Below, piece after piece: positions 738 to 18,080 of a stretch of 64,000 nucleotides of DNA. The translations under genes and the position numbers were made by a program. The stretch's first letter is position 1. Every line of letters begins with the position of its first letter. The notes below the pieces were generated by a model. The model did no database searches. It was not told the DNA's origin and saw nothing but the letters and a program-made list of their open reading frames with translations. The stretch is from assembly GCF_053078305.1 (NCBI RefSeq), contig NZ_CP166879.1. One strand, given 5' to 3'.

Positions 738-854
738 TGTTTTTATCTCCTTTCATCAACACTGTAACAATACATATAAACATTAATATTATTAAAGATT
801 CTCACCATCAATATTCGCAGTGAATAATGCAGCATCTCATATTCACATCCTGCA

Positions 855-877
855 GAGAAAACCCCTCCGGAGAGGGG
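855..877 (-). terminator. Orphan terminator-like hairpin with no supported gene upstream
   Basis: CCCCTC (862-867) CGGA GAGGGG (872-877). On the minus strand it is followed by TTTTCTC. There is no ORF of 60 aa or more to its right before 1100. Confidence 0.3.
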
Positions 878-2893: not shown

Positions 2894-3118
2894 ATGACAC
2901 GCAACGCAACGCAACGCAACGCAACGCAACGCAACGCAACGCAACGCAACGCAACGCAACGCAACGCAACGCAACGCAACGCAACGCAACGCAACGCAAC
3001 GCAACAATATGCTCGCCTGAACTCTCTCCGTCAAGTACCTCTACCTCCGTGCTTTCTGGAGGTACTGTATGAATATACGCAACAATCATCTACCGGGAAC
3101 AGAAACTCTTTTTTCTGA
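2894..3118 (+). promoter_or_regulatory. Upstream leader ORF (74 codons) that translates the GCAAC tract and overlaps the mod start
   Basis: ATG 2894 with GAGG at 2885-2888. It reads the tract as a repeating five-residue peptide (NATQR)n, crosses the mod SD and ATG in another frame, and stops at 3116-3118. Confidence 0.4.
2901..3005 (+). repeat. Simple sequence repeat: 21 perfect tandem copies of GCAAC
   Basis: Counted directly: 8 copies on line 2881, 12 on line 2941 and 1 on line 3001. No interruptions. Confidence 0.97.
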
Positions 3119-5105
3119 AACTGAAACTGCGAACAGTAAACAACTTGCTGTTTTGAAAACTAACTTTCCACAGTGTTTCGATAAAAACGGAGCTTTCATT
3201 CAGGAAAAGCTGCTTGAGATCATCAGAGCATCAAATGTTGAAATCTCTAAAGAGTCATACTGCTTAAACTGGCTTGGCAAATCCTATGCTCGCCTGCTGG
3301 CTAACCTACCACCAACGACATTGCTGTCAGAAGATAAAGACCATAACCGACGTGAAGAGAACAAGAACAGTCAAAATCTGTTAATCAAAGGGGATAACCT
3401 TGAGGTATTAAAGCATATGGTTAATGCTTATTCTGAAAAGGTTAAAATGATTTATATCGATCCGCCATATAACACGGGTTCTGATGGGTTCGCCTATAAT
3501 GATGATCGCAAATTTACACCAGAACAGCTTTCTGATCTGGCGGGTATCGATCTTGATGAGGCTAAACGTATACTTGAATTTACCACGAATGGTTCAAGCA
3601 GCCATAGCGCATGGTTAACGTTCATTTATCCTCGTTTATATATTGCTCGTGAGCTTCTACGTGAAGATGGTGTGATATTTATTTCGATTGACGAAAATGA
3701 ATTAAATCAACTTAAAACTATTTGTGATGAAATTTTTGGCGAAGCAAATTTCATAGAAAATATTGTATGGAATAAACGTATCCCTAAAAATGATAAGGGT
3801 ATTGGTAATATCCATGAGTACATCCTTGCTTATGCGAAGAATAACGAAATAAGTAAAGAATTTTTAATGCGGAAAGATGGTATTGATGATGTATATCAGT
3901 TTATTGAAAAGTTAAAAAAGGAAAAGGTGCCATTAGATAAAGCAGAGCAGCAACTCAAAAAATTCTACAGCTCCAACGGATATGATCGTGGAATTACTCT
4001 TTACAACGGTTTGAACGAGGATTATAGGCCATGGGGTAAAATTAATATGAGTTGGCCTAATGCAGATTCATTTGGACCCACGTATGAAGTATTGCACCCT
4101 TTGACTAATAACCCTGTCAAAATCCCAGACAGAGGCTGGCGTTGGAAAGAAGGCACTTTTAATCATATTGCAAAAAGAATAGATGGAAAGTATGCAGATA
4201 TCAAAAAACTACATGATGGTAGCGTTATTTGTGGTGGAATTTGGTTTGCCCGTACAGAAAAAACCCAACCCAGTTCGGTTAAATTTTTAGATGAAGTTGA
4301 AGAGTTTTTACTAAGATCAATTATTTCAACTAAAAGTGATGGTGGTGTTGAGGTTGAAAATCTTTTTGGTGGGAAAGGATATTTCTCCTACCCGAAGCCA
4401 ACAAGTTTAATAAAAACACTATTTGGTTCAGTAAGAACCGAAGATAAAGACATTTATCTTGACTTTTTTGCTGGCTCTGGAACTACAGCTCATGGTATTC
4501 TGGAGTTAAATATTGAAGACGGCAGGAAAAGAAACTTCATCTGTGTTCAATTAGATGAAGAAACAGATAAAAAGAAACAAGCCTATAAAGAAGGGTATAA
4601 ATCCATCTTCAATATAACAAAAGACAGAATTATTAAGGCAGGAAAAAAGCTGAAAAAAGATAATCCTAATTATAATGGAGATTTGGGATTTAAAATATTT
4701 GAAACAGTTCATGATTTTCGAGCGAAAGATGAGTCTGAACTTACGCTTTCTAATCTTAGTTTCTTTGACGATGCTGTATTGACACCAGAGCAGTATGACA
4801 CTCTATTGACGACATGGTGCGTGTATGATGGCAGCTTGCTAACAACACCAATTGAAGATATTGACCTTAATGGCTACAAAGCACACTTGTGCGATGGTCG
4901 GCTATATCTAATTGCGCCTAATTTCACAAGTGAGGCTTTGAAAGCTTTACTTCAAAAGCTGGATGCAGACAAAGACTTTGCCCCTAACAAAGTTGTATTT
5001 TATGGCAGCAACTTCGAAAGTGCGAAACAGATGGAACTCAATGAAGCACTAAAAAGTTATGCTAATAAAAAATCTATTGATTTAGATTTGGTGGTAAGGA
5101 ACTAA
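3069..5105 (+). CDS. mod: Type III restriction-modification methyltransferase (Mod), beta-class N6-adenine type
   Basis: 678 aa. DPPYNTG (motif IV) comes before FFAGSGTTAHG (motif I), the order seen in type III Mod. GGAGG SD at 3058-3062. The stop lies 2 nt before the res ATG. Confidence 0.9.
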   Translation: MNIRNNHLPGTETLFSETETANSKQLAVLKTNFPQCFDKNGAFIQEKLLEIIRASNVEISKESYCLNWLGKSYARLLANLPPTTLLSEDKDHNRREENKNSQNLLIKGDNLEVLKHMVNAYSEKVKMIYIDPPYNTGSDGFAYNDDRKFTPEQLSDLAGIDLDEAKRILEFTTNGSSSHSAWLTFIYPRLYIARELLREDGVIFISIDENELNQLKTICDEIFGEANFIENIVWNKRIPKNDKGIGNIHEYILAYAKNNEISKEFLMRKDGIDDVYQFIEKLKKEKVPLDKAEQQLKKFYSSNGYDRGITLYNGLNEDYRPWGKINMSWPNADSFGPTYEVLHPLTNNPVKIPDRGWRWKEGTFNHIAKRIDGKYADIKKLHDGSVICGGIWFARTEKTQPSSVKFLDEVEEFLLRSIISTKSDGGVEVENLFGGKGYFSYPKPTSLIKTLFGSVRTEDKDIYLDFFAGSGTTAHGILELNIEDGRKRNFICVQLDEETDKKKQAYKEGYKSIFNITKDRIIKAGKKLKKDNPNYNGDLGFKIFETVHDFRAKDESELTLSNLSFFDDAVLTPEQYDTLLTTWCVYDGSLLTTPIEDIDLNGYKAHLCDGRLYLIAPNFTSEALKALLQKLDADKDFAPNKVVFYGSNFESAKQMELNEALKSYANKKSIDLDLVVRN

Positions 5106-5107
5106 TC

Positions 5108-8103: not shown

Positions 8104-8802
8104 ATGACAACATGTTCTGAACTGAAGGAAAGAGCCCGTTTTGATGGTATGCATGATGCTTCTCTTGAAGTGGCATGGCAATTACTTATGACGAAAAGTG
8201 TATCCACTATTACTACTGAGATAATATCCGGTGCAGACATGTCCAATTTTTCAGTGATTATCAGGGAACGATATAAACATGCAATAGCAAAATCTCTTCT
8301 CAATCATTTATCTCCCGATGTTGTTTCTGACATCATCGGTTTATCTCATGATGAGTTCAATCAACAATATAAAGGCAATTTAACCAGACAACAACACCTG
8401 AGAGATATTGCTGTAAGTTTAACAGATAAAGGATTCACAGAATCATCTGCATGTAATATTGTCAACCTGGACCTAATGTTACTTCCTGAAGAAAACTGGT
8501 TACTTTATAAAGAAAATTACAATACAGGATATCAGGATGCACTTTATAAATCCGTATGGAGAATGCACACATACGAATATCCAACAGCAACCATCAGTTG
8601 TTTGACAAAATTAAATAATGAAAATATATTAAATATTATTACAGGTATAGAAGTAATACTCCTCGCAGCAAAAAAACCTGCATGTAAAGACAGAACAGAT
8701 AAAATTGCTGAAATGCTGAAAATACCATTCTCTGTCGTCAAAGAATTTATTGATGAACAGGCTTTATTGAACAAATCAAACATTCAGGGAACTGGCAGTT
8801 GA
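8104..8802 (+). CDS. hypothetical protein (232 aa) immediately downstream of res
   Basis: Start set at the ATG at 8104 (MTTCSELKER...), which follows AGGTGAG. Two HTH-like segments are present, but no family was recognised. Confidence 0.45.
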   Translation: MTTCSELKERARFDGMHDASLEVAWQLLMTKSVSTITTEIISGADMSNFSVIIRERYKHAIAKSLLNHLSPDVVSDIIGLSHDEFNQQYKGNLTRQQHLRDIAVSLTDKGFTESSACNIVNLDLMLLPEENWLLYKENYNTGYQDALYKSVWRMHTYEYPTATISCLTKLNNENILNIITGIEVILLAAKKPACKDRTDKIAEMLKIPFSVVKEFIDEQALLNKSNIQGTGS

Positions 8803-8828
8803 ACAAAACGCCAGTCCGAAGACTGGCG
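8803..8828 (-). terminator. Rho-independent terminator for the 8849-9535 gene (hairpin shared with the + strand unit)
   Basis: CGCCAGTC (8809-8816) CGAA GACTGGCG (8821-8828). On the minus strand it is followed by TTTTGT. Confidence 0.6.
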
Positions 8829-8848
8829 CAGTGATAAAACATTCTGCA

Positions 8849-9535
8849 TCATGCCACATTCTGCTCCTGAAGATGACGCAGACGATGGTCCCAGTTTCCC
8901 AGGTAATGCCCGGGCGTCAGCAGTACGCGGCGTCGCTCATTACAGAGCGAGTTACCAATCACCACTTCTCCGGCCACACCACACAACGACAGTTGTATAT
9001 ACGCCATGCCGGCTGCCAGCGGGTCAATATCCGTTGCCGACACCCACATCCTGCGATATGCCGGATACCCCGAACGGTTCAGGGTGTCAGCCATTGCCAG
9101 AATCATACTGCCGGCACCACAGGCAGGTTCACTGAGCGTGATAAAGGGTTTGTTCTCAAACAACGCCTTCACATCTCCCATCTGCATCTGTGCCATCATG
9201 CTGGCAACACTCCAGGGCGTGAAAAACTGACTCCGGTATTTATCCCCCAGTTCCAGTTGCATGAACACACTCCCCAGAAAATCACAGACTCCCTGCTCCA
9301 GTCCCTCAATGACATGAGCAAGCAAATGCGCAATGTGGATAACATCCTGCTTTTCATAACCACTGACGATCCGCAGATACTTCTGTTCCCGGGCCTCACT
9401 GAACTGAAGCCGGTTTTCCAAGGCAATCACACTACAGCTGACAAAGTCTTCAAACACCTTATGACGTTTGTGATAACAGGCTGTCCGGTTAAACAACGAA
9501 ATGAACTCCTTCTGATGGTCAGTCATGGTGGCCAT
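8849..9535 (-). CDS. N6-DNA-methyltransferase-like protein that ends before the catalytic motif IV
   Basis: 228 aa. Contains FFTP, EPACGAGS (motif I) and TDIDP (motif II). The ORF ends after VIGNSL with no (N/D)PP(F/Y/W) motif. GGAG SD. Confidence 0.6.
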   Translation of the reverse strand: MATMTDHQKEFISLFNRTACYHKRHKVFEDFVSCSVIALENRLQFSEAREQKYLRIVSGYEKQDVIHIAHLLAHVIEGLEQGVCDFLGSVFMQLELGDKYRSQFFTPWSVASMMAQMQMGDVKALFENKPFITLSEPACGAGSMILAMADTLNRSGYPAYRRMWVSATDIDPLAAGMAYIQLSLCGVAGEVVIGNSLCNERRRVLLTPGHYLGNWDHRLRHLQEQNVA

Positions 9536-9545
9536 GTTTTCTCCG

Positions 9546-9591
9546 TAAAAACAGGGAACACATGGCCCGGACAGGGGAACAGGTGTTCCCC
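9546..9591 (-). terminator. Terminator with two alternative stems downstream of the 9647-10594 gene
   Basis: GGGAACAC (9554-9561) pairs with GTGTTCCC (9583-9590); alternatively GGGGAACA (9574-9581) pairs with TGTTCCCC (9584-9591). TGTTTTTA follows on the minus strand. Confidence 0.55.
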
Positions 9592-9646
9592 TTCGGGTTG
9601 AAATGTTGATAAAACGGGCATCACGGACATGATACCCGGAGGTTAA

Positions 9647-10594
9647 TTACTGGGCTGAGACCAGAGGAACCGGTAAAGGTGCGGCTTTCGTCTGTTCTTC
9701 AGCGCACTCCTCCACCAGGTACAGTCGGGGCTGTGGAAGTGTTTCCCTGCCCGGCCATTCGGCCTGCAGATCACTGTCCGTATGCTCTCCGCCATCGTAA
9801 CAGTTGTAACCCTGTATACCGTGTACCGGCTCGCTGTACCAGTGTCGGACCTCGCAGTCAAACACCTTCGAGATCTCACCAACCAGTTCGCCTGAAGGCG
9901 GATACCAGGGCGTGTCGATCAGCAGCACCAGACTGCTCATCTCATCACGCGCATGGCGAACATTATTTCCTGACGGCCACTCCACACCGTATATCCGGCT
10001 GTAAAGGCTGGTCGTTGTGGAAATACCCTGCAGCAGTCCACCTGAACCATTCAGCTCTGTAGCCAGACGGGAGGGTATGACCATCAGCATGTCACAGGGC
10101 TGCGCCTGTTCCGGGTAATCCGACAACCAGCTCCAGCAGGCTTCTGCATCAATGTGTTCACTCAGCCCGGCCAGACCAAACCAGTCAGAATACTGACGGC
10201 TCATCAGCGTGGTGATGATCTCCCTGGCATTATCCGGCAGATTACCCCAGCGAACAGCGCCGATACATGACTGGTGATAAAGACGCTCAATGGTCTTTAT
10301 CGTTTCACCATCCAGAACGGCATTTTTTACCAGCAACCCCAGCCACTGCTCAAACGCCTGGTTAGCCGGAGATGACAACCCCGTTCCGTGACGAACCAGC
10401 GCCGGATATGGCGGATACTGCGTCGTCCGTGTGGGTTTTACCAGCCCTGCACAACCGGCCAGAAACAGCTGTATACTCTGCTGTATGGCATGACGGTAGC
10501 GCGGGGTCTCACGCCCTTCAATCCACTGTGTAAGTACATCAAGACAGACTGATTTACCGGTAATTTCAAAACGGTTTTTGCACCATTCAGACAT
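9647..10594 (-). CDS. hypothetical protein (315 aa), conjugative-element type; possibly DUF1281-like
   Basis: AGGAG SD. The N-terminus MSEWCKNRFEITGKS resembles my memory of DUF1281/Api92-like proteins (low certainty). Confidence 0.55.
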   Translation of the reverse strand: MSEWCKNRFEITGKSVCLDVLTQWIEGRETPRYRHAIQQSIQLFLAGCAGLVKPTRTTQYPPYPALVRHGTGLSSPANQAFEQWLGLLVKNAVLDGETIKTIERLYHQSCIGAVRWGNLPDNAREIITTLMSRQYSDWFGLAGLSEHIDAEACWSWLSDYPEQAQPCDMLMVIPSRLATELNGSGGLLQGISTTTSLYSRIYGVEWPSGNNVRHARDEMSSLVLLIDTPWYPPSGELVGEISKVFDCEVRHWYSEPVHGIQGYNCYDGGEHTDSDLQAEWPGRETLPQPRLYLVEECAEEQTKAAPLPVPLVSAQ

Positions 10595-10623
10595 TGTTTA
10601 CGCTCCTCTTTTTTATACAGATG

Positions 10624-10661
10624 TAAAAAGAGGGCATTGTCCCGTGAGGTACAATGCCCTC
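10624..10661 (-). terminator. Rho-independent terminator after the 10678-10992 gene
   Basis: GAGGGCATTGT (10630-10640) pairs with ACAATGCCCTC (10651-10661). TTTTT follows on the minus strand. Confidence 0.6.
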
Positions 10662-10666
10662 ACGGG
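10641..10666. repeat. GC-rich dyad, family 1 (CCCGTGAGG ... CCTCACGGG)
   Basis: 9-bp perfect inverted repeat that overlaps the terminator stem, so the two pairings are mutually exclusive. Lies ~47 nt upstream of start 10594. Confidence 0.8.
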
Positions 10667-10677
10667 AAAACGGGGTA

Positions 10678-10992
10678 TCACGCCCCGTTGTTGCGGATAA
10701 AACCCTGCAGCCAGGCAGTTCGCTCAGGGCCATACCGCCTGTTGACATTCATCAGTTCGTCTGCAGACGGATTGATGAAAAGGTTGTAGTACCAGAGCTC
10801 TTCCTTTAAATCCGCCAGGTTCCCCCTGCCGGTCCTGAGCCACTCCTGTACAACATCCCTGATTTCAGATGTGACATCTCCACGGTAATTTGACGTGATC
10901 GTAACATCTGCCAGTAATTCACTGATATTTCCTGCTATCAGACACGGTTCAGAGATCCCGTTACAGAACCAGACAAGGCATTTACCAGCCAT
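10678..10992 (-). CDS. hypothetical protein (104 aa)
   Basis: GGAGG SD 6 nt upstream. Packed 3 nt from the upstream gene. Confidence 0.55.
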   Translation of the reverse strand: MAGKCLVWFCNGISEPCLIAGNISELLADVTITSNYRGDVTSEIRDVVQEWLRTGRGNLADLKEELWYYNLFINPSADELMNVNRRYGPERTAWLQGFIRNNGA

Positions 10993-10995
10993 ACC

Positions 10996-11433
10996 TTACC
11001 TCCTGTATTTGCTGGTATTTATCCCGATCTCGTTTATGGCTACGGATATGTTGCCCGGAAAACGCGCTGTTTCAATCTTCTCCAGCTCGTTTTTCCGGTA
11101 ACGCTCCACGGTCACACTCAACGGGACGTTCCCCTGTCCGTACTCTTTACGAAGGCGATCAATACACTCCTGTACCAGTTCATCGCTGAAATAACGGGAT
11201 TCAAGCACAGACAGCAGCCCGTCTTTATTCTCAAACCCCTCTGTGACAGAGCGTACTTCGGCCTCCGTTGGACCATCCAGCCAGCTCACCCACACATTGT
11301 TGAAAACTTTCGGGAAAGATGGATCGCATTTCCGCACAGAAAATTTCTGTCCCGGAAATGTATACGCCAGCACATCCCTGATACGGGCCACAACAGCATC
11401 GTCAACATCAACCAGTGCGTTATCGTTCATCAC
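10996..11433 (-). CDS. hypothetical protein (145 aa)
   Basis: AGGAA SD. The composition looks coding. No motif recognised. Confidence 0.55.
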   Translation of the reverse strand: MMNDNALVDVDDAVVARIRDVLAYTFPGQKFSVRKCDPSFPKVFNNVWVSWLDGPTEAEVRSVTEGFENKDGLLSVLESRYFSDELVQECIDRLRKEYGQGNVPLSVTVERYRKNELEKIETARFPGNISVAINEIGINTSKYRR

Positions 11434-11472
11434 TCAGTTCCTCTGTAATCCTGAAATAACAGAGAGCACTGC

Positions 11473-11498
11473 CCCGTGAGGGACAATGCCCTCACGGG
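11473..11498. repeat. GC-rich dyad, family 1 (CCCGTGAGGG-N6-CCCTCACGGG)
   Basis: 10-bp perfect inverted repeat with the same loop ACAATG as the 10641 copy. Lies ~40 nt upstream of start 11433. Confidence 0.8.
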
Positions 11499-11539
11499 AT
11501 AAATGGCGGTCAGGTTATAACCGCCACCGGTAGTAAAAA

Positions 11540-12517
11540 TTATGCTGCGCACTCCTGCGAAGTTCGCCGCGTCAGTAAATACTCTGATGCTTCACGTGCC
11601 TGCCGGCAGGCGCGAAACAGCGCTTTTTTGTCAGACTTCAGAACCTTAAGCCATCCGTCAATATAACTTTCGTGCTGTACGTCACCGGCAATCCCGAGAT
11701 GTGCACACAGAAAAGCACTGCCCATCTCGGCAATCAGCTCTTCAAACGCATATTCCGGGCTTTTGCGACCGGTAAAGGTACTTATCCCCACCCGCCGCAG
11801 GCGCTTTTCATGACCGGTACTGTGTACCAGCTCATGCAGCAGGGTGGCCTGGTAATCAGCCACCTGGTCAAACTGCGACGACAGTGGCATCACGATACGG
11901 TCAAGATCAGGCCGGTAGAATGCCCTGTCCTGTGGAAGTGACGAGACGCTGACGCCGCTGCCATTCAGTACCTGCAGCACCCGCTCACTGAAGGTATCTG
12001 CCGGCAGTGCATCCGCGCTGCCTTCCGCCTTCACCATCAGATGTTCAGGTAAACCGTCACACTGCCCCACATTAAACAGAGGATTCGATTTCAGTACCGG
12101 TACGATTTCCATGAGAGGCTCCCCCTCACTGTCCGTCAGCCGGTTACCGTGTTCATCCACAGCCTGTTTTTTCCAGTCTTTGTAAATCACCGCCAGCGTG
12201 GCCACCTCCCCTTTACGGACGTGGCCACCCAGTTGTTGCGCCTGACGGTACGTCAGCCAGTCATTGCTGACATACCCGGCTTCATCCGCGGCCAGCCACA
12301 GCAACAGGACGTTCACCCCTGTATAAGGCTTCCCGGTCAGGGCATTTGCCGGCATCATCTCCGGAAGCCCCACGCCATTACGCGCAGAGCGCCAGGGACG
12401 TTTCCAGGGTGGCACACCATTTTCAATGGCCGTAACAACCCTGTCGGTCACAAGCTGATACAGGTCACGTTCCGGAGTTTTAATCGCGGTACGTGAAGTA
12501 TGTTTTTTCGTTTTCAT
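11540..12517 (-). CDS. ardC: ArdC-type antirestriction protein (ssDNA-binding N-domain plus zincin metalloprotease domain)
   Basis: VVTAIENGVPPWKRPW (ArdC-N pattern) and LLHELVHSTGH (HEXXH). Start moved to ATG 12517 (MKTKKHTSR...), giving 325 aa. Confidence 0.8.
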   Translation of the reverse strand: MKTKKHTSRTAIKTPERDLYQLVTDRVVTAIENGVPPWKRPWRSARNGVGLPEMMPANALTGKPYTGVNVLLLWLAADEAGYVSNDWLTYRQAQQLGGHVRKGEVATLAVIYKDWKKQAVDEHGNRLTDSEGEPLMEIVPVLKSNPLFNVGQCDGLPEHLMVKAEGSADALPADTFSERVLQVLNGSGVSVSSLPQDRAFYRPDLDRIVMPLSSQFDQVADYQATLLHELVHSTGHEKRLRRVGISTFTGRKSPEYAFEELIAEMGSAFLCAHLGIAGDVQHESYIDGWLKVLKSDKKALFRACRQAREASEYLLTRRTSQECAA

Positions 12518-12609
12518 AAGAGCATGCCCCCTGAAAAAGATGCACGCTCCCTGTACGGTGAGAGTGCACCGTACAGTTAAATTAATAACGAAAATCAGAC
12601 TGGCCAGAA

Positions 12610-12993
12610 TTACCACAACGCCAGCATCACCAGTGAACGACGCTCAAAATCAAACGTCTTCAGCGTATTGCTGACCCACGCTTTTACGTCATCCACGTCA
12701 TACCAGTAATCACCGGCATAATCTTCCCCCCGTAAACACGAGCCTGTGACATAAGGAAACAGCCTGTGGCAGTTCCCCGGTGTCAGCATACTGAGGTCGC
12801 GCAATAATGCAGCCAGTGAACTGCGGGTTACAGGGAAAGCATGCTGCTCATCTGAAGCACCGGTATGTTCACGAAACCATGTCAGAAGAGGTTTCACCTT
12901 ACGGAAAGCCCCCACCTCCTGATGTTCCTGTGTTCCCACAACGGCACCACTGTGATGGTTATCACGAGCCAGAAAGTAAATATCGAGTCCCAT
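12610..12993 (-). CDS. hypothetical protein (127 aa)
   Basis: Start at ATG 12993 (MGLDIYFLARD...), preceded by AGGAG. Confidence 0.5.
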   Translation of the reverse strand: MGLDIYFLARDNHHSGAVVGTQEHQEVGAFRKVKPLLTWFREHTGASDEQHAFPVTRSSLAALLRDLSMLTPGNCHRLFPYVTGSCLRGEDYAGDYWYDVDDVKAWVSNTLKTFDFERRSLVMLALW

Positions 12994-13108
12994 AACAATT
13001 CTCCTGAATAAAGCCGGGACTCTCCCCACAGGGATATGTCCCTGCCGGGTGATATAATGACGGAATACGTGATGACGTTATTCCGGATAAAGAAACTACG
13101 GCGTTCTG

Positions 13109-13738
13109 TTACCGCCCACCGGCAAGAGCCCGCAGCCAGTAAAGCTGATATTCGGCCTCTTCCAGTGCTGCCCAGTCATCCGGGGATAACTGTCGCCCCT
13201 GACCGGACAAAAACTGCAGCAGTAAGCTGTCAAACACATCTCCCCTTACCAGGGTGGTTAATACAGACTCCGGAGCAGAAAAATTCTCATGCCCCAGGTA
13301 CCGTTTTATCCATTTCAGCGGCAGCGACCAGCTGGCACCACCGACAGTGGAATGAATACGAAAACAGTCCGGACACAGATTGTGCAACAGCACAAAGACT
13401 GTACGGGCAAAGAAATCTCCCGGCTGACGTCCGAAATTCAGCTCATTAAGAGCCAGAATATTCCGGCTGTGCTCCCGCTCAATAGTGACATTCACCGACC
13501 ACAGCCCGTCGGCAGACCGGCAGTAAAACGCCAGCGTGTCCGTTACCGGAAACAACTCTGACGCCCGGGTCAGGGAGCCGAAATACGCATTCTGCGGCCG
13601 TAACGCCTCCGGCAACTGCCAGAAGGTTTCAGTGGCAGCCAGAACAAAAGCATGCCACTGCTTTTCCGGTATTGTGGAAACCTGCTCAAGGGTATATACC
13701 ACCGGCTCACGGGCCGGACGTGAAGATAACTCAGACAT
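13109..13738 (-). CDS. hypothetical protein (209 aa)
   Basis: Start at ATG 13738 (MSELSSRPAREP...), preceded by GAGGA. Confidence 0.5.
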   Translation of the reverse strand: MSELSSRPAREPVVYTLEQVSTIPEKQWHAFVLAATETFWQLPEALRPQNAYFGSLTRASELFPVTDTLAFYCRSADGLWSVNVTIEREHSRNILALNELNFGRQPGDFFARTVFVLLHNLCPDCFRIHSTVGGASWSLPLKWIKRYLGHENFSAPESVLTTLVRGDVFDSLLLQFLSGQGRQLSPDDWAALEEAEYQLYWLRALAGGR

Positions 13739-13780
13739 GGAACATTCCTCATGGTTAAAACGAAACAACGGGGAATGTCT

Positions 13781-13807
13781 CCCGGACGGAGAACTCCCCC
13801 GTCAGGG
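13781..13807. repeat. GC-rich dyad, family 2 (CCCGGACGG ... CCGTCAGGG)
   Basis: 8 of 9 positions pair. Lies upstream of start 13738. Confidence 0.6.
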
Positions 13808-13819
13808 TCAGGTCATGAA

Positions 13820-14197
13820 TTACATCATGTCGTGCCGGGCAAAATATTCATCCGCTCCGGCCACCATCTTTCCGGTACTGATACTGTCAGCCCAGATTTC
13901 ATGATTAATTTCACGCCCCAGAGCCATCAGACTGTCGAGTGCCTGACGGGCCTGAATTCCCGGTGCGGAAATCTCCTCCTGCTCCAGGTCATACAACAGC
14001 CAGCCCAGCGCCTCGCCGGTATCCCACAGATACACGTATACCAGTGAAGGCTCCGTCTCATCATCCGGCTCCGGGGTAATACCCAGCCGTTGCCAGGCTC
14101 GTAACCGCATCAGCTCGCCTTCCATCTGACTGATATGAGCCAGCAGAGCAGACTGCGTCTGAAGCGCTGAATAATGAGCAATTAAAGGTGAATACAT
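13820..14197 (-). CDS. hypothetical acidic protein (125 aa)
   Basis: GGAGG SD. Rich in D and E. Confidence 0.5.
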   Translation of the reverse strand: MYSPLIAHYSALQTQSALLAHISQMEGELMRLRAWQRLGITPEPDDETEPSLVYVYLWDTGEALGWLLYDLEQEEISAPGIQARQALDSLMALGREINHEIWADSISTGKMVAGADEYFARHDMM

Positions 14198-14228
14198 GAT
14201 GACCTCCGTCTCTTAAAGGAAGTCCTGT

Positions 14229-14256
14229 CCCTGACGGAACAAAACTCCCGTCAGGG
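14229..14256. repeat. GC-rich dyad, family 2 (CCCTGACGG-N10-CCGTCAGGG)
   Basis: 9-bp perfect inverted repeat with loop AACAAAACTC, followed by AAAACACC. Lies 32 nt upstream of start 14197. Confidence 0.8.
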
Positions 14257-14509
14257 AAAACACCGGCGCAAAAACACGGTGCAGTAAGTAAAAGAAAAAC
14301 CGTTACGGGAGCAAAACAGCCATCATTGCAAAATGGCAGTTGCATCGCTCACGATTTGACATCCTTCCTGTGACTGACTGGCATCCTGCCCGTCAGTCTG
14401 CGTCGGAAAATTCAATACAGGCCTGCTTCAGGAGCCCGGCTATACGTTGATTCAGACATTCCGTCCAGCCATCGTTCCATCCACGCTCCCATGGATTGCA
14501 GACATCCTC

Positions 14510-14872
14510 CTATGGATTGCAGACATCGTTACAGCCATTCTTCCATGTCTTCCATGCCTCCATCTCCATGACAGCCCCCAGCCTGTGGCCTTTCACACGT
14601 ATATGCCACAGAAACGGCCGGAAAAGTCCTGATTTCAGTTGGTCACCACCGCTTTTGTAGCCCAGATGACATGCAACACTTTCAGTATATTCAAATGCAT
14701 CATTCTGCATTCCAGCCGCCTTAGCCAGCGAGCTGTACGCATCACGAAGTATCGTCATACCTTCCAGTTGATACTCACACCACGCACGGACAGCCGACAC
14801 TGGTGCGATTACCCGAAGAATGGTGCAGGGACGCCATACAACAATGTAAAGGAGTATTAACAGACTATGCAT
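14510..14872 (-). CDS. hypothetical protein ending at an amber codon inside a 21-bp tandem duplication; the frame stays open to 14393
   Basis: TAG at 14510-14512 corresponds to TGG in the neighbouring repeat copy. See findings. Confidence 0.4.
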   Translation of the reverse strand: MHSLLILLYIVVWRPCTILRVIAPVSAVRAWCEYQLEGMTILRDAYSSLAKAAGMQNDAFEYTESVACHLGYKSGGDQLKSGLFRPFLWHIRVKGHRLGAVMEMEAWKTWKNGCNDVCNP

Positions 14873-14889
14873 GTGTTCACCTCAGATAC

Positions 14890-14933
14890 AAAAAATAACG
14901 GGAACACACCTGCCTTGCGGGAAGCGTGTTCCC
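14890..14933 (-). terminator. Rho-independent terminator after the 14955-15347 gene
   Basis: GGGAACAC (14900-14907) pairs with GTGTTCCC (14926-14933). GTTATTTTTT follows on the minus strand. Confidence 0.6.
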
Positions 14934-14954
14934 GACAGGGTAATAAATGATAAA

Positions 14955-15347
14955 TCAGCAGGGCTGTGCGACGATTCCATCACCCTGCAGACCAAACCGG
15001 TAACGCAGGGTGGTCAGTTGCTCCGCCATACGGCAGGCAGCATGCCATGTCCTGCGACGGGATATCCGTCCGGTAAACCGGTTCAGATAAATGACCTCAC
15101 GCGGTAACGGCTGATACCATCCTGTGTACTCGTTGCGATACATTCCCTGCCGGTAATACAGGCAGGGTGTCCAGACACCGCCACGACGGAACATACAGAC
15201 CCGCACGCTCAGATTGCCGGCCGGATTAGTGTACCAGCGACTGTAATATGACAGGTTATTGCGGGAAAAAAACACCCGCAACTGAGCCGTCATTCGCCGG
15301 AAAAAAGAAGAGATGCCCGGTTCAGGGCACAAAATAAACGTTGACAT
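14955..15347 (-). CDS. hypothetical protein (130 aa)
   Basis: Start moved to ATG 15347 (MSTFILCPEP...), preceded by AGGAG. The longer ORF-track version would run into the structured repeat. Confidence 0.5.
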   Translation of the reverse strand: MSTFILCPEPGISSFFRRMTAQLRVFFSRNNLSYYSRWYTNPAGNLSVRVCMFRRGGVWTPCLYYRQGMYRNEYTGWYQPLPREVIYLNRFTGRISRRRTWHAACRMAEQLTTLRYRFGLQGDGIVAQPC

Positions 15348-15378
15348 AAAGACTCCTGTAAAAAAACGGGAGCCTTCG

Positions 15379-15406
15379 CCCCGACGGACAAAAACTCCCG
15401 TCAGGG
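15379..15406. repeat. GC-rich dyad, family 2 (CCCCGACGG-N10-CCGTCAGGG)
   Basis: 8 of 9 positions pair. Same loop and same trailing AAAACACC as the 14229 copy. Lies 32 nt upstream of start 15347. Confidence 0.7.
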
Positions 15407-15442
15407 TTAAAACACCACCAGTACAGCATGGTGTTGCTGTCA

Positions 15443-15777
15443 GAAAAAGCCCGTTAATAAAGGGCGCAGTTATAAAGAAACCTTCATCGTCATGACTGAC
15501 GATATCTGCTCTCAAAGGTGGGCAGATTTACCACCACCAGAAACATCCTGGCTGCACATCCCCTTTCAGGTTACGGGGGTGTTGATCACCCGAAGGCGTT
15601 CCTCTCAGATCAACGGAACATTGGTGCCCACCGAAGCGGGATGTGGTCACCCGAAGGCGCTCCTCTCAGACCACTTATGGAGCATTGGTGGTCGCCGAAG
15701 CGACATGTAGCCACCCGAAGGCGCTCCTCTCAGGCCACTTGTGGAGCATTGGTGGTCGCCGGAGCGACATATAAGCC
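15443..15777 (-). ncRNA. STAXI-like structured element, locus A: three tandem ~64-nt pseudoknot modules plus a ~135-nt 3' part
   Basis: On the minus strand there are six UNCG tetraloop hairpins, two covarying stems per module, G.U pairs that exist only in the minus-strand reading, and a terminal GCCC/GGGC hairpin followed by U5. See findings. Confidence 0.55.
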
Positions 15778-15782
15778 TGTAT

Positions 15783-15811
15783 ATTTTTAAATCACAAAAG
15801 ATGAATGTCAA
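15783..15811 (-). promoter_or_regulatory. Candidate sigma70 promoter for locus A
   Basis: Minus strand: TTGACA (15811-15806), 17-nt spacer, AAAAAT (15788-15783). The predicted start falls just before the first hairpin. Confidence 0.4.
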
Positions 15812-15812
15812 G

Positions 15813-16136
15813 TTATTCAACATCAATCCAAAGAGGAATATTATGTATTCCCTTAACGGGTTCTCCCAGAGGAAAAACACAGGTCCCTTTAATCAGTATT
15901 TTTCTTCCCGACCATCTGACATCACAGTTAAAATCTCCCACCACATCAAAATAATCCGCAATGGATTCATAGATGTCCCATTCATCATAGATATCCCATT
16001 TATCTGCTGTTCCTTCACATTCAAACTCGGCCTGATATCCGGAATCAACATATCGCGCCAGATAGTGTGACCACAAAGGCGAATTTTTTGTAATCTCTTT
16101 TACAGAGATTATTTTCAGCAAAATAGTACAATCCAT
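15813..16136 (-). CDS. hypothetical acidic protein (107 aa) downstream of the recombinase
   Basis: ORF only. D/E/W-rich. No clear SD. Confidence 0.4.
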   Translation of the reverse strand: MDCTILLKIISVKEITKNSPLWSHYLARYVDSGYQAEFECEGTADKWDIYDEWDIYESIADYFDVVGDFNCDVRWSGRKILIKGTCVFPLGEPVKGIHNIPLWIDVE

Positions 16137-16168
16137 AATATTTACCCGTACGAAATCGCCATGAGTTA

Positions 16169-17071
16169 TTACTCATAGCCTAACAACTGACAATAAACCT
16201 GTTCAATATATCGTCCTCTGCCATCACCATGACCAAGATCAATTGATGTCAGTGCAAGTGCCTCCTTATAACTGTAACCGTTCATAATATGATATTTCAT
16301 GGCACTTGCAGCGTAACTGTACCGAAAACTGTGTGCAGTCTCATCTCTGCCTTTCAGTTCTCCATAACGACGTAATGTATTAAGATAATAATCCATTGCC
16401 GACTTAAGATTATCTCTGTCTATAAGACGTCCATTATGTTCACTGGCATATTTGAGTGCATAATTAACAGCATCAAGAACGTTATCCCGGTCAACAACCG
16501 TTGTCATTCTTTCCCGTCCCCCTTTCGTACCAAAAATCACTCTTATTTTTTCATCTCCCCGTTGTAACGCTTTTTTCCAGGTTCGTAATGATTTGGCCGA
16601 CTGGATAGCTTCTTCATTTCTCAGACCGAGGTAACGTGACAGTTTAACAACAGCAGCCACCCCTTTATCTTTTGCTTCCACACGCTGAAGAATCTCCCGA
16701 AAACGCTCATCCGTGATTAATTTTTTTGTTCCCTTACGACTGGAGCCGGAAATGCCTAACGCTTTATTGCTGAGACGAGGATGTTCGGGATCAGCCATCT
16801 TATATTTACCTGCCTGACGTAACATAACCCGTATTGCAGACATTTCATTTTCCCTTGTTCGCCCAGAAACATTATTCCGGCTTCTCATATATAGCTCAAT
16901 ATGCCGGACTTTTACCTGCGCGGCAGAACTGATCTGTACATTCATTTTTGCCAGACTTTCAGCAAAGCGGTGCATGATCCTGGTGTAATCACTCAGCTTC
17001 TTGAAGCTGCCTTTGTCTTTTCGAATGTGAGCAACCAGATCCTGTTTCAGTAATTTTTCACGTCTGGACAT
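16169..17071 (-). CDS. Tyrosine recombinase (XerC/D-like phage-integrase family)
   Basis: YLGLRNEEA (Arg I), AHSFRYSYA (HxxR) and LGHGDGRGRY (catalytic Tyr). Start set at ATG 17071, preceded by GGAG 6 nt upstream. The ORF-track start at 17086 is a GTG. Confidence 0.85.
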   Translation of the reverse strand: MSRREKLLKQDLVAHIRKDKGSFKKLSDYTRIMHRFAESLAKMNVQISSAAQVKVRHIELYMRSRNNVSGRTRENEMSAIRVMLRQAGKYKMADPEHPRLSNKALGISGSSRKGTKKLITDERFREILQRVEAKDKGVAAVVKLSRYLGLRNEEAIQSAKSLRTWKKALQRGDEKIRVIFGTKGGRERMTTVVDRDNVLDAVNYALKYASEHNGRLIDRDNLKSAMDYYLNTLRRYGELKGRDETAHSFRYSYAASAMKYHIMNGYSYKEALALTSIDLGHGDGRGRYIEQVYCQLLGYE

Positions 17072-17120
17072 CAACTTCTCCTGCACATAATAATTTTTAC
17101 CTTAAACAGCTGTACGTTCG

Positions 17121-17171
17121 GCAGATGAGTTTTTCTGTTGTGCCGTGAACACAACAGAAAAACTCATCTGC
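17121..17171. repeat. Perfect 22-bp inverted repeat (7-nt spacer), 50 nt upstream of the recombinase start
   Basis: GCAGATGAGTTTTTCTGTTGTG (17121-17142) pairs with CACAACAGAAAAACTCATCTGC (17150-17171). No T-run on either side. Confidence 0.9.
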
Positions 17172-17782
17172 ATTTCTCCCTGACGACACGGTTAAACGTT
17201 GCGATCCTTCGGGTAGTGACTGCCTGTGCGCCAGGGTAGCGCAGATTGTTTAGGTATTGAGGGGTAACAAATCGGTGTTGCACACCGACTGCAGCATTTG
17301 CTGTACCTGTCTCCAGGTCGCCCCCGACACCACCTCTAATAAGTGGTATCGCCGATTCGGCATCTCACTACATAAAACTCCTTAAAAAAACAATTGATTC
17401 TGCAAAAAACCATTTATGGACGTTATTCACAAAATCGTCCGTAAATTTGCAGAAGAGGTTGAAAAAACACTCTCACGCCGGGTCACTTCTTCAAATGTTA
17501 AAAAACATCACGTGAAACGGCAGTTCGTGCGGGTTCGTTAAGCAGACGCGCGTGCGTCACTTTGTCATCGTGACACGCTGACGAAAGTGACGCCGCGCAG
17601 CTTCAGACGCCAGATACACGCGTAAGCGACCAAATTTCAAATGGTCTTATACAGCGCGCACAGTCGCAGGAAGTGCTGGCAAACAAATGAAAAGAATAAA
17701 AGAAGTCAATACCGCCATTACGCAGTAAGAACATTCCGGCATCACCGGATGGATAAGGATCACACAACCACTGCTGTGTATT

Positions 17783-18050
17783 GCCCGTAATAAAGGGCGC
17801 GGTTAAAAGAAACCTTCATCGTCATGACTGACGATATCTGCTCTCAAAGGTGGGCAGATTTACCACCACCAGAAACATCCTGGCTGCACATCCCCTTTCA
17901 GGTTACGGGGGTGTTGATCACCCGAAGGCGTTCCTCTCAGATCAACGGAACATTGGTGCCCACCGAAGCGGGATGTGGTCACCCGAAGGCGCTCCTCTCA
18001 GACCACTTATGGAGCATTGGTGGTCGCCGAAACGACAGATAATGTATTCT
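17783..18050 (-). ncRNA. STAXI-like structured element, locus B: two tandem modules plus the same 3' part
   Basis: Identical to locus A over 15477-15699 / 17809-18031, at an offset of 2332. Confidence 0.5.
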
Positions 18051-18051
18051 G

Positions 18052-18080
18052 AGCATATCAGAGCGCATAAAAGGCGTCAA
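18052..18080 (-). promoter_or_regulatory. Candidate sigma70 promoter for locus B
   Basis: Minus strand: TTGACG (18080-18075), 17-nt spacer, TATGCT (18057-18052). It lies in sequence not shared with locus A. Confidence 0.4.

What the first reader, a model, noticed from the sequence alone, without database searches (positions are those of the whole stretch)
15443..15811. Tandem pseudoknot modules with UUCG tetraloops, readable only on the minus strand (STAXI-like element) upstream of the ardC gene array
Seen in the sequence, read on the minus strand: three ~64-nt modules lie in tandem at 15775-15587. (1) Each module starts with a hairpin closed by a UNCG tetraloop (GUCGC-UCCG-GCGAC, GUCGC-UUCG-GCGAC, CCCGC-UUCG-GUGGG) and contains a second one (CGCC-UUCG-GGUG), giving six UNCG loops in ~200 nt. 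(2) Each module has two further stems in the order a, b, a', b' (pseudoknot topology), and both covary between modules. Stem a is GUUCC/GGAAC versus GCUCC/GGAGC. Stem b is GUUGAUC/GAUCAAC, GUGGUC/GACCAC and GUGGCC/GGCUAC. (3) Two of these helices contain a G.U pair on the minus strand that would be an A.C mismatch on the plus strand (15630/15637 and 15709/15736), which argues for a minus-strand RNA or minus-strand ssDNA. (4) A TTGACA-N17-AAAAAT promoter sits just upstream (15811-15783). (5) The 3' part ends in GCCC-N9-GGGC followed by UUUUU (15465-15443) and contains CCAGGAUGU in a small hairpin (15551-15543), which resembles the CsrB CAGGAUG repeat. Established knowledge, from memory: the STAXI motif (Weinberg et al. 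2010) is described as a simple pseudoknot repeated two or more times, often with UNCG tetraloops, next to Ssb, Topoisomerase, Antirestriction and XerDC-Integrase genes, and its function is unknown. This locus has an antirestriction gene array on one side and a XerC/D-like integrase on the other. The 72-aa ORFs in the ORF track (15492-15710 and 17824-18042) are therefore probably not genes.
Basis: partly seen in the sequence, partly recalled or inferred. Interest (0 to 1): 0.75.

Follow-up and report, generated by a model that had tools for sequence, protein, structure and literature searches.

The report
STAXI leader RNA of an ICE
The region is a typical copy of the known STAXI RNA (tandem pseudoknots with UUCG loops), transcribed from its own promoter as the start of a roughly 420-nt leader that ends in a terminator just before an anti-restriction operon of an E. 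coli conjugative island; what the RNA does is still unknown.

Summary
Rfam's STAXI model (RF01728) hits the minus strand at 15641-15476 (75.7 bits) and 18037-17872 (91 bits); the gathering score is 40.5. EFASI lies at 17371-17214. The window is an E. coli chromosomal MPF_G conjugative element, the known habitat of STAXI.

In 62 distinct modules from 81 Enterobacterales loci, both pseudoknot stems covary: 98.6% of cells pair, against 31-50% in slid controls. G.U pairs outnumber A.C pairs 98 to 5, which fixes the strand as the sense strand of the downstream genes. 76 of 81 arrays have a sigma-70-type promoter at a fixed distance, against 0.2% of random positions, so STAXI is the 5' end of a transcript.

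Copy 1 has five modules, not three. The GCCC-N9-GGGC-U5 "terminator" is weak and not conserved. The CsrA-like CCAGGAUGU sits in a variable insert (9 of 80 arrays).

The conserved 3' end is a strong terminator at 15402-15360, 13 nt before the start codon. It competes with a conserved hairpin, and one arm carries an anti-Shine-Dalgarno segment.

Best reading: a cis-acting leader/attenuator RNA. Novelty: already known; the mechanism is inferred.

The parts
15783..15811 (-). Promoter of STAXI copy 1: -35 TTGACA (15811-15806), 17-nt spacer, -10 AAAAAT (15788-15783). The start of transcription is inferred at about 15778-15776.
   Evidence: One search found the site. In homologues, 76 of 81 distinct arrays have a TTGAxx-N16-18-xAxxxT promoter whose -10 ends 28-35 nt before CACCAAUG, against 9 of 5000 random positions. 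The start site itself is inferred, not mapped.
15704..15769 (-). STAXI module 1. P1 hairpin GUCGC-UCCG-GCGAC (15768-15755). Pseudoknot core 15754-15707: stem a 15747-15743 with 15727-15723, stem b 15738-15733 with 15712-15707, inner GCC-UUCG-GGU hairpin.
   Evidence: Sequence; own module model, 60.1 bits; TRF 64-nt period.
15640..15705 (-). STAXI module 2: P1 15704-15691, core 15690-15640.
   Evidence: 61.5 bits.
15579..15641 (-). STAXI module 3: P1 15640-15627, core 15626-15579. The Rfam hit begins here.
   Evidence: 66.2 bits.
15529..15579 (-). Divergent module X. Stem a is CCCC/GGGG; the loop is UGAAA. A variable insert holds CCAGGAUGU (15551-15543).
   Evidence: Rfam alignment. Covariation in 77 homologous segments: helix 1 is 89.6% paired and all 6 of its pairs show double changes. 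The insert differs in every lineage. An AGGAUG-like motif occurs in 9 of 80 arrays.
15480..15527 (-). Divergent module Y. Stem a is AUCUGC (15527-15522) with GCAGAU (15509-15504). Stem b is ACCUU (15519-15515) with AAGGU (15484-15480). Inner hairpin 15503-15486.
   Evidence: helices 3, 4 and 5 are 97.6%, 93.3% and 94.0% paired, with 13 pairs showing changes on both sides.
15444..15465 (-). It is weak and specific to this lineage.
   Evidence: Present in the sequence. Not reported by the terminator scan. Copy 2 has the hairpin without a U-run. Absent from homologues.
15379..15406 (-). Conserved hairpin H2: CCCUGACGG (15406-15398) with CCGUCGGGG (15387-15379). It is mutually exclusive with the terminator helix.
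   Evidence: The same hairpin (CCCCGACGGGA...UCCCGUCNGGG) occurs in 29 distinct leaders from other genera. Folded alone it gives -17.1 kcal/mol.
15360..15402 (-). Intrinsic-terminator-like helix T: a 17-bp stem (15402-15365) running into a U-run that ends at 15360. Its 3' arm (GGCUCC, 15374-15369) can instead pair with the Shine-Dalgarno region (GGAGUC, 15356-15351).
   Evidence: (-27.7 kcal/mol). In homologues the T helix abuts a U-run in 12 of 29 leaders, and the SD pairs with an upstream segment in 28 of the 28 leaders with a recognisable SD.
8849..15357 (-). Downstream operon. SD AGGAG (15357-15353), then a 130-aa protein (15347-14955), several hypothetical proteins, ArdC (12616-11540), LPD29 (11433-10996), DUF1281 (10594-9647) and an N6 DNA methylase (9535-8849).
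   Evidence: No sigma-70-like promoter lies on this strand between 15783 and 8700.
18052..18080 (-). Promoter of STAXI copy 2: TTGACG-N17-TATGCT, with TG upstream of the -10.
17806..18037 (-). STAXI copy 2: two canonical modules plus X and Y. It is 100% identical to 15474-15705.
   Evidence: (91 bits, 18037-17872).
17214..17371 (-). EFASI RNA, about 500 nt downstream of STAXI copy 2 and upstream of the integrase gene.
   Evidence: 53.2 bits; gathering score 51.2. The same order (STAXI, EFASI, STAXI) on one strand occurs in 18 of 18 two-array loci.
15813..17086 (-). Integrase-domain protein (PF12835/PF12834; 17086-16169) and a 107-aa ORF (16136-15813), lying between the two STAXI copies.
15492..15710 (+). 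72-aa ORF antisense to STAXI, with a twin at 17824-18042. Not a gene.

Best explanation
The element is a member of the known STAXI RNA family. It is made as RNA from the minus strand, starting a few nucleotides after its own sigma-70-type promoter. It forms the 5' part of a leader of about 420 nt that precedes the anti-restriction/DNA-processing operon (15347-8849) of an MPF_G integrative conjugative element.

The leader has five tandem H-type pseudoknot modules. It ends in an expression platform with three competing pairings:
- a conserved hairpin H2;
- a terminator helix T followed by a U-run;
- an anti-SD:SD helix.

I infer that most transcripts stop at T and give a stable, structured RNA of about 415 nt. 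I also infer that transcription into the first gene, and its translation, depend on which pairing forms. The tandem pseudoknots would then be the binding platform for a still unidentified trans-acting factor, most likely a protein, that biases this choice or protects the leader.

Shown: family membership, strand, structure, promoter position, and the terminator and anti-SD elements. Inferred: the start site, termination in vivo, any link between the modules and the platform, and the identity of the factor.
For: - Membership: Rfam hits above the gathering score, minus strand only.
- Structure: pseudoknot stems a and b are 98.6% paired, with 160 double-change cells in 62 distinct modules; slid controls give 31-50%. 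Modules X and Y are 91.4% paired, with 21 pairs showing changes on both sides.
- Strand: 98 G.U cells against 5 A.C cells.
- Promoter: at a fixed distance in 76 of 81 distinct arrays, against 9 of 5000 random positions.
- No other promoter-like site lies between 15783 and the ATG at 15347.
- Terminator: a 17-bp stem running into a U-run that ends 13 nt before the ATG.
- Platform: H2, T and the anti-SD recur with compensatory changes in 29 distinct leaders of other genera.
- Different first genes follow STAXI: DUF3577/STY4534 ICE replication protein (22 arrays), EFASI plus integrase (14), and the family of the window's 130-aa protein (11). This fits a shared leader rather than a partner-specific RNA.
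- Published data: strand-specific RNA-seq in Pectobacterium atrosepticum detected STAXI transcripts as two abutting 228-nt segments, about 450 nt in all, next to topB (PMC4710047). STAXI was detected by RT-qPCR in E. coli vesicle RNA (PMC12370729). STAXI is typical of MPF_G ICEs (PMC5587801).
Against: - No transcript ends are mapped for this locus.
- In EDL933 grown in the laboratory, STAXI had only 2-6 RNA-seq reads (PMC5331693), so the promoter may be silent or repressed.
- There is no obvious base-pairing overlap between the pseudoknot modules and H2/T. About 70 nt lie between them in the window. The link between 'sensor' and 'platform' is therefore conjecture.
- Only 12 of 29 homologous leaders have the T helix directly against a U-run. 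In the DUF3577 class the U-run is 4-7 nt away or missing, so termination may not be the common output.
- Copy 2 is followed by EFASI and not by this platform.
- Single-module folding energies are not better than shuffles.
Confidence: 0.55

Rival explanations
1. A trans-acting small RNA or protein sponge. The terminated leader of about 415 nt is itself the product. Its repeated, sequence-invariant pseudoknots (CCAAUG, CUGAGAG, CGCCUUCGGGUG) would titrate a host or ICE RNA-binding protein, as CsrB or 6S RNA do, and the downstream operon would be expressed only by leakage.
For: - There are 2-5 modules per array with nearly invariant loop sequences.
- A strong terminator follows the array.
- A genome carries several arrays: up to 8 places per E. 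coli genome matched the 3-kb query that spans both copies.
- Rfam classes STAXI as 'Gene; sRNA'.
- Discrete transcripts were detected in Pectobacterium (PMC4710047), and the RNA was abundant in vesicle preparations (PMC12370729).
Against: - Every array is co-oriented with a gene that starts within a few hundred nucleotides and has no promoter of its own.
- The conserved anti-SD:SD pairing only makes sense in cis.
- The one CsrA-like GGA motif is not conserved, and Rfam gives no CsrB/RsmZ hit.
- This rival is compatible with the cis model rather than exclusive of it.
Confidence: 0.2
2. A processive antitermination RNA, working like HK022 put or the EAR element. The nascent pseudoknots would modify the transcribing RNA polymerase so that it reads through T and the later terminators of a long operon.
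For: - The array sits immediately downstream of the promoter in 76 of 81 cases.
- Several arrays per ICE each head a different operon.
- A strong terminator lies between STAXI and the first gene.
- Further terminator-like hairpins lie on the sense strand inside the 6.5-kb operon (11493-11462 and 9638-9615) and at its end (8829-8808), with no internal promoter.
Against: - The internal hairpins have poor U-runs and could be mRNA-stabilising structures.
- No sequence or structural similarity to put, EAR or nut was tested or seen.
- Constitutive antitermination would make the conserved T and anti-SD switch pointless.
- All the evidence is positional.
Confidence: 0.12
3. A single-stranded DNA structure formed by the minus strand during conjugative transfer or rolling-circle replication, for example a priming or loading site or an ssDNA promoter. 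This is the alternative raised by Weinberg et al. 2010.
For: - The neighbouring genes act on DNA or ssDNA: ArdC, integrase and, in homologues, DUF3577/STY4534, ssb and topB (PMC2864571).
- The element lies in a conjugative island.
Against: - The invariant inner hairpin is C(UUCG)G, which is extra-stable in RNA but not in DNA (PMC2864571).
- G.U pairs are frequent (98 cells).
- DNA folding energies are about half the RNA values and no better than shuffles.
- A promoter at a fixed distance is conserved.
- The folded strand is the sense strand of the downstream genes. A transferred strand that served as template for early transcription would be the opposite strand (inference).
- RNA has been detected (PMC4710047).
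- Which strand this ICE transfers was not determined here.
Confidence: 0.05
4. A type III toxin-antitoxin-like arrangement: tandem pseudoknot repeats acting as RNA antitoxin, then a terminator, then a toxin gene, as in toxIN.
For: The layout (promoter, tandem pseudoknot repeats, terminator, RBS, small gene) is the same as at toxIN. The toxIN layout is from my own knowledge; the window's layout is.
Against: - The repeats are not near-identical (86%) and their stems covary from one module to the next.
- Across arrays the downstream gene belongs to at least three unrelated families, including an integrase.
- The 130-aa protein has no Pfam or NCBIfam match, so none to ToxN/AbiQ-type families.
Confidence: 0.03
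5. The plus-strand 72-aa ORFs (15492-15710 and 17824-18042) are real genes, and the conservation is at the protein level.
For: An antisense ORF of 60 aa or more overlaps the array in 43 of 77 homologous arrays.
Against: - The 64-nt period places the conserved modules in different frames.
- Substitutions are compensatory and contiguous rather than at every third position.
- ORF length ranges from 0 to more than 100 aa.
- PGAP calls no CDS there.
- The four STAXI loci in EDL933 had zero or one ribosome-footprint reads per replicate, at low RNA coverage (PMC5331693).
Confidence: 0.01

Closest known systems
STAXI RNA motif (Rfam RF01728; Weinberg et al. 2010, PMC2864571)
   Same: It is a member. 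It scores above the gathering threshold, has tandem pseudoknot modules with UUCG tetraloops, occurs in Enterobacterales, lies next to antirestriction and XerC/D-like integrase genes, and sits in an MPF_G ICE (PMC5587801).
   Different: There is no categorical difference. Copy 1 has an extra canonical module, giving 3 canonical plus 2 divergent modules where the Rfam model has three repeats. It also carries a lineage-specific insert in module X. The Rfam hit on copy 1 (15641-15476) covers only the last canonical module and modules X and Y.
EFASI RNA motif (Rfam RF02957)
   Same: The window's EFASI lies about 500 nt downstream of STAXI copy 2 and upstream of an integrase gene. This is how Rfam describes the family (quoted in PMC12370729). 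The same order recurs in 18 of 18 two-array loci.
   Different: The score is only just above the gathering threshold (53.2 against 51.2). Its function is unknown.
STAXI-EFASI-integrase-STAXI-ArdC-DUF1281-methylase block of Salmonella genomic island SGI4 (record named pSGI4, NZ_CP061051.1)
   Same: Gene order and orientation are the same, and MPF_G transfer genes lie nearby.
   Different: The STAXI sequence is only about 76% identical. The cargo differs: metal resistance there, against a siderophore receptor, an adhesin and a type III R-M system here.
Classical leader-attenuators and riboswitch expression platforms (terminator versus alternative hairpin, anti-SD:SD)
   Same: The last 50 nt of the leader have mutually exclusive H2 and T helices, a U-run, and an anti-SD segment that pairs with the SD.
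   Different: There is no leader peptide. No ligand or protein is known. No pairing overlap between the pseudoknot modules and the platform was found.
HK022 put RNA and lambda nut sites (promoter-proximal RNA elements that make RNA polymerase resistant to terminators)
   Same: The position is promoter-proximal, there are several copies per element with each heading an operon, and terminators lie downstream.
   Different: There is no sequence or structural homology, and the activity is untested. This is a resemblance in layout only, recalled from my own knowledge.
ToxI-type type III antitoxin RNAs
   Same: Tandem pseudoknot repeats are followed by a terminator and a small gene.
   Different: The repeats are diverged, the downstream genes are unrelated between arrays, and no ToxN-like protein is present.

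Membership tests
STAXI (RF01728) | Covariance-model score at or above the curated gathering score (40.5 bits) | tested here: met
   75.7 bits (15641-15476) and 91.0 bits (18037-17872), both on the minus strand with full-length model matches.
STAXI (RF01728) | A pseudoknot module repeated at least two, usually three, times in tandem | tested here: met
   Copy 1 has three canonical modules (TRF period 64) plus modules X and Y. Copy 2 has two canonical modules plus X and Y.
STAXI (RF01728) | Pseudoknot stems supported by compensatory changes | tested here: met
   A1: 98.6% paired, 7 pairs and 160 cells with double changes, 0 of 500 shuffles reaching the observed values, slid controls 31-50%. A2: 91.4% paired, 21 pairs with double changes. 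Caveat: the A1 modules were collected with a pattern that fixes the loop and inner-hairpin bases, so only the free positions count as evidence.
STAXI (RF01728) | UUCG/UNCG tetraloops frequent within the repeats | tested here: met
   Six in 15594-15763 and four in copy 2, against a background of 0.14 per 200 nt.
STAXI (RF01728) | Neighbourhood of Ssb, topoisomerase, antirestriction or XerDC-type integrase genes; Enterobacterales | tested here: met
   ArdC (PF08401 and PF18818) lies downstream and an integrase (PF12835) lies between the copies. The host is E. coli. No ssb or topB gene was identified in the window. Only ORFs near the element and the largest ORFs elsewhere were scanned.
EFASI (RF02957) | Score above the gathering threshold; several hundred bp downstream of STAXI and upstream of an integrase gene | tested here: met
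   53.2 bits against 51.2. It lies 501 nt after the end of STAXI copy 2 and 128 nt before the integrase ORF.
CsrB/RsmZ-type CsrA sponge | Many GGA motifs presented in hairpin loops, conserved among homologues | tested here: not met
   The window has one CCAGGAUGU per copy. It lies in a variable insert, and an AGGAUG-like motif occurs in 9 of 80 arrays. Rfam gives no CsrB-family hit. The GGAG of each module is buried in pseudoknot stem a'.
Type III toxin-antitoxin (ToxIN-like) | Near-identical tandem RNA repeats followed by a terminator and a ToxN/AbiQ-family endoribonuclease gene | tested here: not met
   The repeats are 86% alike. The downstream protein has no Pfam or NCBIfam match. The downstream gene family differs between arrays.
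ssDNA promoters and single-strand initiation sites of conjugative leading regions (Frpo/ssi type) | The structure forms on the transferred strand, which is the template strand of the early genes it drives | tested here: inconclusive
   The STAXI structure is specific to the sense strand of the downstream genes (98 G.U against 5 A.C), which is the wrong strand for a template-strand ssDNA promoter. However, the transferred strand of this ICE was not determined.
Processive antitermination RNAs (put, EAR) | The cis-acting nascent RNA makes RNA polymerase read through terminators | not testable with these tools
   Only the layout could be checked: promoter-proximal position and downstream terminator-like hairpins.

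The most novel reading that the evidence does not exclude
The STAXI pseudoknots are sensor modules that set the H2/terminator/anti-SD switch at the end of the leader. On this reading STAXI is a multi-module riboregulator that times the ICE's establishment genes (anti-restriction, SSB-like replication protein, recombinase).

One concrete version is autogenous control by an ICE single-strand-binding protein, as with the pseudoknot operator of phage T4 gene 32. The operons would be derepressed only when ssDNA appears during transfer and titrates the protein away. A put-like antitermination role would be comparably new.
Probability: 0.15. Interest if true: 0.65.

Novelty: already known. Interest (0 to 1): 0.3.

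Why it matters
STAXI has had no known function since 2010. Together with radC RNAs, it makes up 80% of the RNA genes detected in MPF_G conjugative elements (PMC5587801). These elements spread virulence, metal-resistance and antibiotic-resistance cargo in Enterobacterales.

This window adds no new kind of element. It does provide a clean instance with two copies, and the comparison made here turns a vague "sRNA near DNA genes" into a testable layout:

- a promoter at a fixed distance;
- five pseudoknots;
- a conserved hairpin/terminator/anti-SD switch;
- then the anti-restriction or replication genes.

If the leader does gate these genes, it would be a control point for how well an ICE establishes itself in a new host that carries restriction systems.

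Tried and rejected
- **Folding energies.** I folded the whole leader and single modules as RNA and as DNA on both strands. The z-scores do not separate the strands (-2.9 against -3.3 for the whole region; about -0.9 for single modules). Nested folding cannot represent the pseudoknot, so I dropped this as evidence.
- **Degenerate modules.** My strict single-module covariance model did not find modules X and Y in the window. They were recovered from the Rfam alignment and from a separate alignment.
- **CsrA-sponge idea.** Rejected because the motif is not conserved.
Rejected as the functional 3' end.
- **Type III antitoxin idea.** Rejected because the downstream genes are unrelated between arrays.
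- **Coding potential of the antisense ORF.** ORF openness alone does not decide it, since an ORF of 60 aa or more is open in 43 of 77 homologues. It was rejected on the frame and substitution-pattern arguments.
- **Phage records.** No STAXI-like match.
- **Plasmid records.** 53 matches. The best-covered one I looked at is the record named pSGI4 (ICE SGI4). The other is only a 66-nt fragment among IS elements on an IncK2/Z plasmid. Neither told me which strand is transferred.
- **First automated terminator count.** It mis-assigned U-runs that lie inside the anti-SD segment. I redid it. Five DUF3577-class leaders still lack a clear U-run.
- **Literature.** I found no functional study of STAXI or EFASI.
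- **oriT polarity of the ICE.** Not pursued: the relaxase gene was not found among the window ORFs scanned, and the ICEclc papers concern Pseudomonas elements that were not checked for STAXI.
Full report
**1. What is there**

Read on the minus strand, 15811-15345 has the following layout.

- A sigma-70-type promoter: TTGACA at 15811-15806, a 17-nt spacer, and AAAAAT at 15788-15783.
- Three 64-nt modules at 15769-15579.
- Two further, more divergent modules at 15579-15529 and 15527-15480.
- A stretch of about 70 nt with small hairpins.
- A conserved hairpin H2 at 15406-15379.
- A 17-bp terminator-like helix at 15402-15365, running into a U-run that ends at 15360.
- A Shine-Dalgarno sequence AGGAG at 15357-15353.
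- The ATG at 15347 of a 130-aa ORF.

Each canonical module has four parts. The first is a P1 hairpin closed on UCCG or UUCG. The second is the single-stranded CACCAAUG. The third is an H-type pseudoknot, in which stem a (GCUCC or GUUCC) pairs with GGAGC or GGAAC and stem b (6-7 bp) encloses the loop CUGAGAG. The fourth is an inner GCC-UUCG-GGU hairpin.

Tandem Repeats Finder reports a 64-nt period with 2.9 copies. The six UNCG-closed hairpins compare with a background of 0.14 per 200 nt in the rest of the window.

**2. Family membership**

Rfam's STAXI model (RF01728) matches the minus strand at 15641-15476 (75.7 bits, E = 4e-14) and at 18037-17872 (91 bits, E = 6e-18). The gathering score is 40.5. 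EFASI (RF02957) matches at 17371-17214.

The window is nearly identical (99.9%) to an E. coli chromosome in which PGAP annotates no CDS under either STAXI copy. It carries MPF_G-type conjugation genes, including a TIGR03744 ATPase and TIGR03756/03757-family genes in the matching genome.

Cury et al. reported that STAXI and radC RNAs make up 80% of the RNA genes in MPF_G ICEs (PMC5587801). Weinberg et al. defined STAXI as a pseudoknot repeated two or three times, often with UUCG loops, near Ssb, topoisomerase, antirestriction and XerDC-integrase genes (PMC2864571).

Here ArdC lies downstream and a PF12835 integrase lies between the two copies. The element is therefore a typical member in its typical place.

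**3. Is the structure real?**

The window alone cannot say much, because its two copies share a 232-nt block that is 100% identical. I therefore collected 81 loci from many Enterobacterales genera with a degenerate pattern.

In 62 distinct modules, stems a and b pair in 98.6% of cells, with 160 double-change cells. No shuffle out of 500 reaches the observed values. Sliding the partners by 1-3 columns drops pairing to 31-50%. The pattern used for collection fixes the loops and the inner hairpin, so only the free stem positions count. They are the ones that covary.

The two divergent modules also hold. In 77 homologous segments, 91.4% of cells pair and 21 of 28 pairs show changes on both sides. 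Copy 1 therefore has five pseudoknot modules and copy 2 has four.

Thermodynamic z-scores were uninformative.

**4. Which strand, and RNA or DNA?**

In the paired columns there are 98 G.U cells (36 without the invariant one) against 5 A.C cells. The structure therefore belongs to the minus strand, which is also the sense strand of all the downstream genes.

76 of 81 distinct arrays have a TTGAxx-N16-18-xAxxxT promoter whose -10 hexamer ends 28-35 nt before CACCAAUG. That places it about 8-13 nt before the P1 hairpin. Only 9 of 5000 random positions in the same loci meet this test. The promoter sequences themselves differ widely between lineages, so what is conserved is the function and the spacing.

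Several lines together favour RNA over the ssDNA alternative:
- the RNA-specific C(UUCG)G loops (an argument already made in PMC2864571);
- strand-specific RNA-seq detection in Pectobacterium atrosepticum (PMC4710047);
- RT-qPCR detection in E. coli vesicle RNA (PMC12370729).

The alternative is not formally excluded, because I could not determine which strand this ICE transfers.

**5. The 3' end and the link to the genes**

It is not picked up by the terminator scan, it has no U-run in copy 2, and it is absent from homologues.

The conserved features lie further on. In 29 distinct leaders from other genera the same three elements recur.

- A hairpin H2 with nearly invariant arms (CCCCGACGGGA...UCCCGUCNGGG).
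- An alternative helix T, in which the 5' arm and loop of H2 pair with a downstream segment. This pairing shows clear compensatory changes, for example AAACAC/GUGUUU, AAUACUUC/GAAGUUUU and ACAUACAC/GUGUAUUU. A U-run follows: it directly abuts the helix in 12 of 29 leaders and lies within 9 nt in 27 of 29. About five of those 27 rest on a U-run internal to the anti-SD segment.
- An anti-SD (UUUCUCC-like) in that same downstream segment. It can pair with the SD of the first gene, and the SD was paired in all 28 leaders with a recognisable SD.

In the window, T folds at -25 to -28 kcal/mol against -17 for H2 alone, and its U-run ends 13 nt before the ATG. No promoter-like site lies between 15783 and 15347, so the 130-aa gene and the operon behind it can only be reached by read-through.

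The two abutting 228-nt STAXI segments reported in Pectobacterium (PMC4710047) add up to about 450 nt. This fits a leader of that length.

**6. Wider context**

In 18 of 18 loci with two arrays, the order is STAXI, then about 500 nt, then EFASI, then the second STAXI, all on one strand. A PF12835-type integrase ORF follows EFASI in the window, in SGI4 and in the 14 arrays of the integrase cluster.

The Salmonella ICE SGI4 has the same block, down to ArdC, DUF1281 and the methylase.

The first genes after the arrays fall into at least three unrelated families:
- DUF3577/STY4534 'ICE replication protein' (22 arrays);
- integrase, after EFASI (14 arrays);
- the family of the window's 130-aa protein (11 arrays).

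This argues for a shared leader that heads several ICE operons. It argues against a partner-specific RNA such as a type III antitoxin.

**7. Mechanism**

What is shown:
- the RNA family, its strand and its structure;
- a promoter-proximal position;
- a terminator and an anti-SD switch directly before the gene.

What is inferred:
- transcription starts near 15776;
- most transcripts end at T;
- the pseudoknots recruit a factor that biases the switch or stabilises the RNA.

I put about 0.9 on 'transcribed STAXI leader RNA' and about 0.45 on the specific leader/attenuator reading. The overall figure is 0.55.

Rivals:
- a trans-acting sponge RNA (0.2), which is compatible with the cis model;
- put-like processive antitermination (0.12), supported only by layout and by terminator-like hairpins at 11493-11462 and 9638-9615 inside an operon with no internal promoter, and at 8829-8808 at its end;
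- ssDNA (0.05);
- a type III antitoxin (0.03);
- a coding antisense ORF (0.01).

**8. The 72-aa ORFs**

Four arguments speak against these being genes.
- The 64-nt period puts nucleotide-conserved modules in different frames.
- Variation comes in blocks of five adjacent columns that are compensated in the partner arm.
- Among homologues the ORF ranges from absent to more than 100 aa.
- PGAP does not call it.

In EDL933 the STAXI loci had almost no ribosome footprints, though also very few RNA reads (PMC5331693).

**9. Verdict**

It needs two corrections (the terminator and the CsrA motif) and two additions (five modules rather than three, and a conserved attenuator-like end).

The element is already known as a family and sits in its known context. 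Its function remains open, and the layout described here makes that function directly testable. Interest is modest (0.3).

Noticed in passing
window 17368-17383 (-): EFASI begins inside a minimal start-stop ORF: AAGGAG (17383-17378), 4 nt, AUG (17373-17371), then UAG immediately (17370-17368).
   Followed up: no
window 17122-17170 (-): A hairpin with a perfect stem of about 21 bp (CAGAUGAGUUUUUCUGUUGUG...) lies between EFASI and the integrase start codon. No U-run follows it.
   Followed up: no
window 15474-15705 and 17806-18037: The two STAXI copies share 232 nt at 100% identity, while their promoters and flanks differ. This suggests recent gene conversion between the two leaders of one ICE.
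   Followed up: partly
window 11462-11493, 9615-9638, 8808-8829 (-): Terminator-like hairpins lie on the sense strand between genes of the ArdC operon and at its end. No sigma-70-like promoter lies on that strand in 8700-15450.
   Followed up: partly
window 3069-8020 (+): A complete type III restriction-modification system (EcoP15I-like mod and res) sits about 0.8 kb beyond the end of the anti-restriction operon. It was not checked whether it lies inside the island.
   Followed up: no
window 852-1054 (-): STnc100 sRNA (RF02076), 138.7 bits.
   Followed up: no
L014 851-1037 (-), Brenneria bubanii: A C4 antisense RNA and an isrK RNA lie about 0.5-0.7 kb downstream of one STAXI array of this locus (at 173-328). 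This matches Weinberg's remark that STAXI is occasionally found near c4 RNAs.
   Followed up: no
window 14955-15347 (-): The first gene after STAXI copy 1 encodes a 130-aa protein with no Pfam or NCBIfam match. Relatives of 30-39% identity occupy the same position after STAXI in Kluyvera, Serratia, Edwardsiella, Pantoea and Erwinia.
   Followed up: partly
window 52716-53768 (-): An IS110-family transposase lies just upstream of the conjugation genes at 55-64 kb.
   Followed up: no
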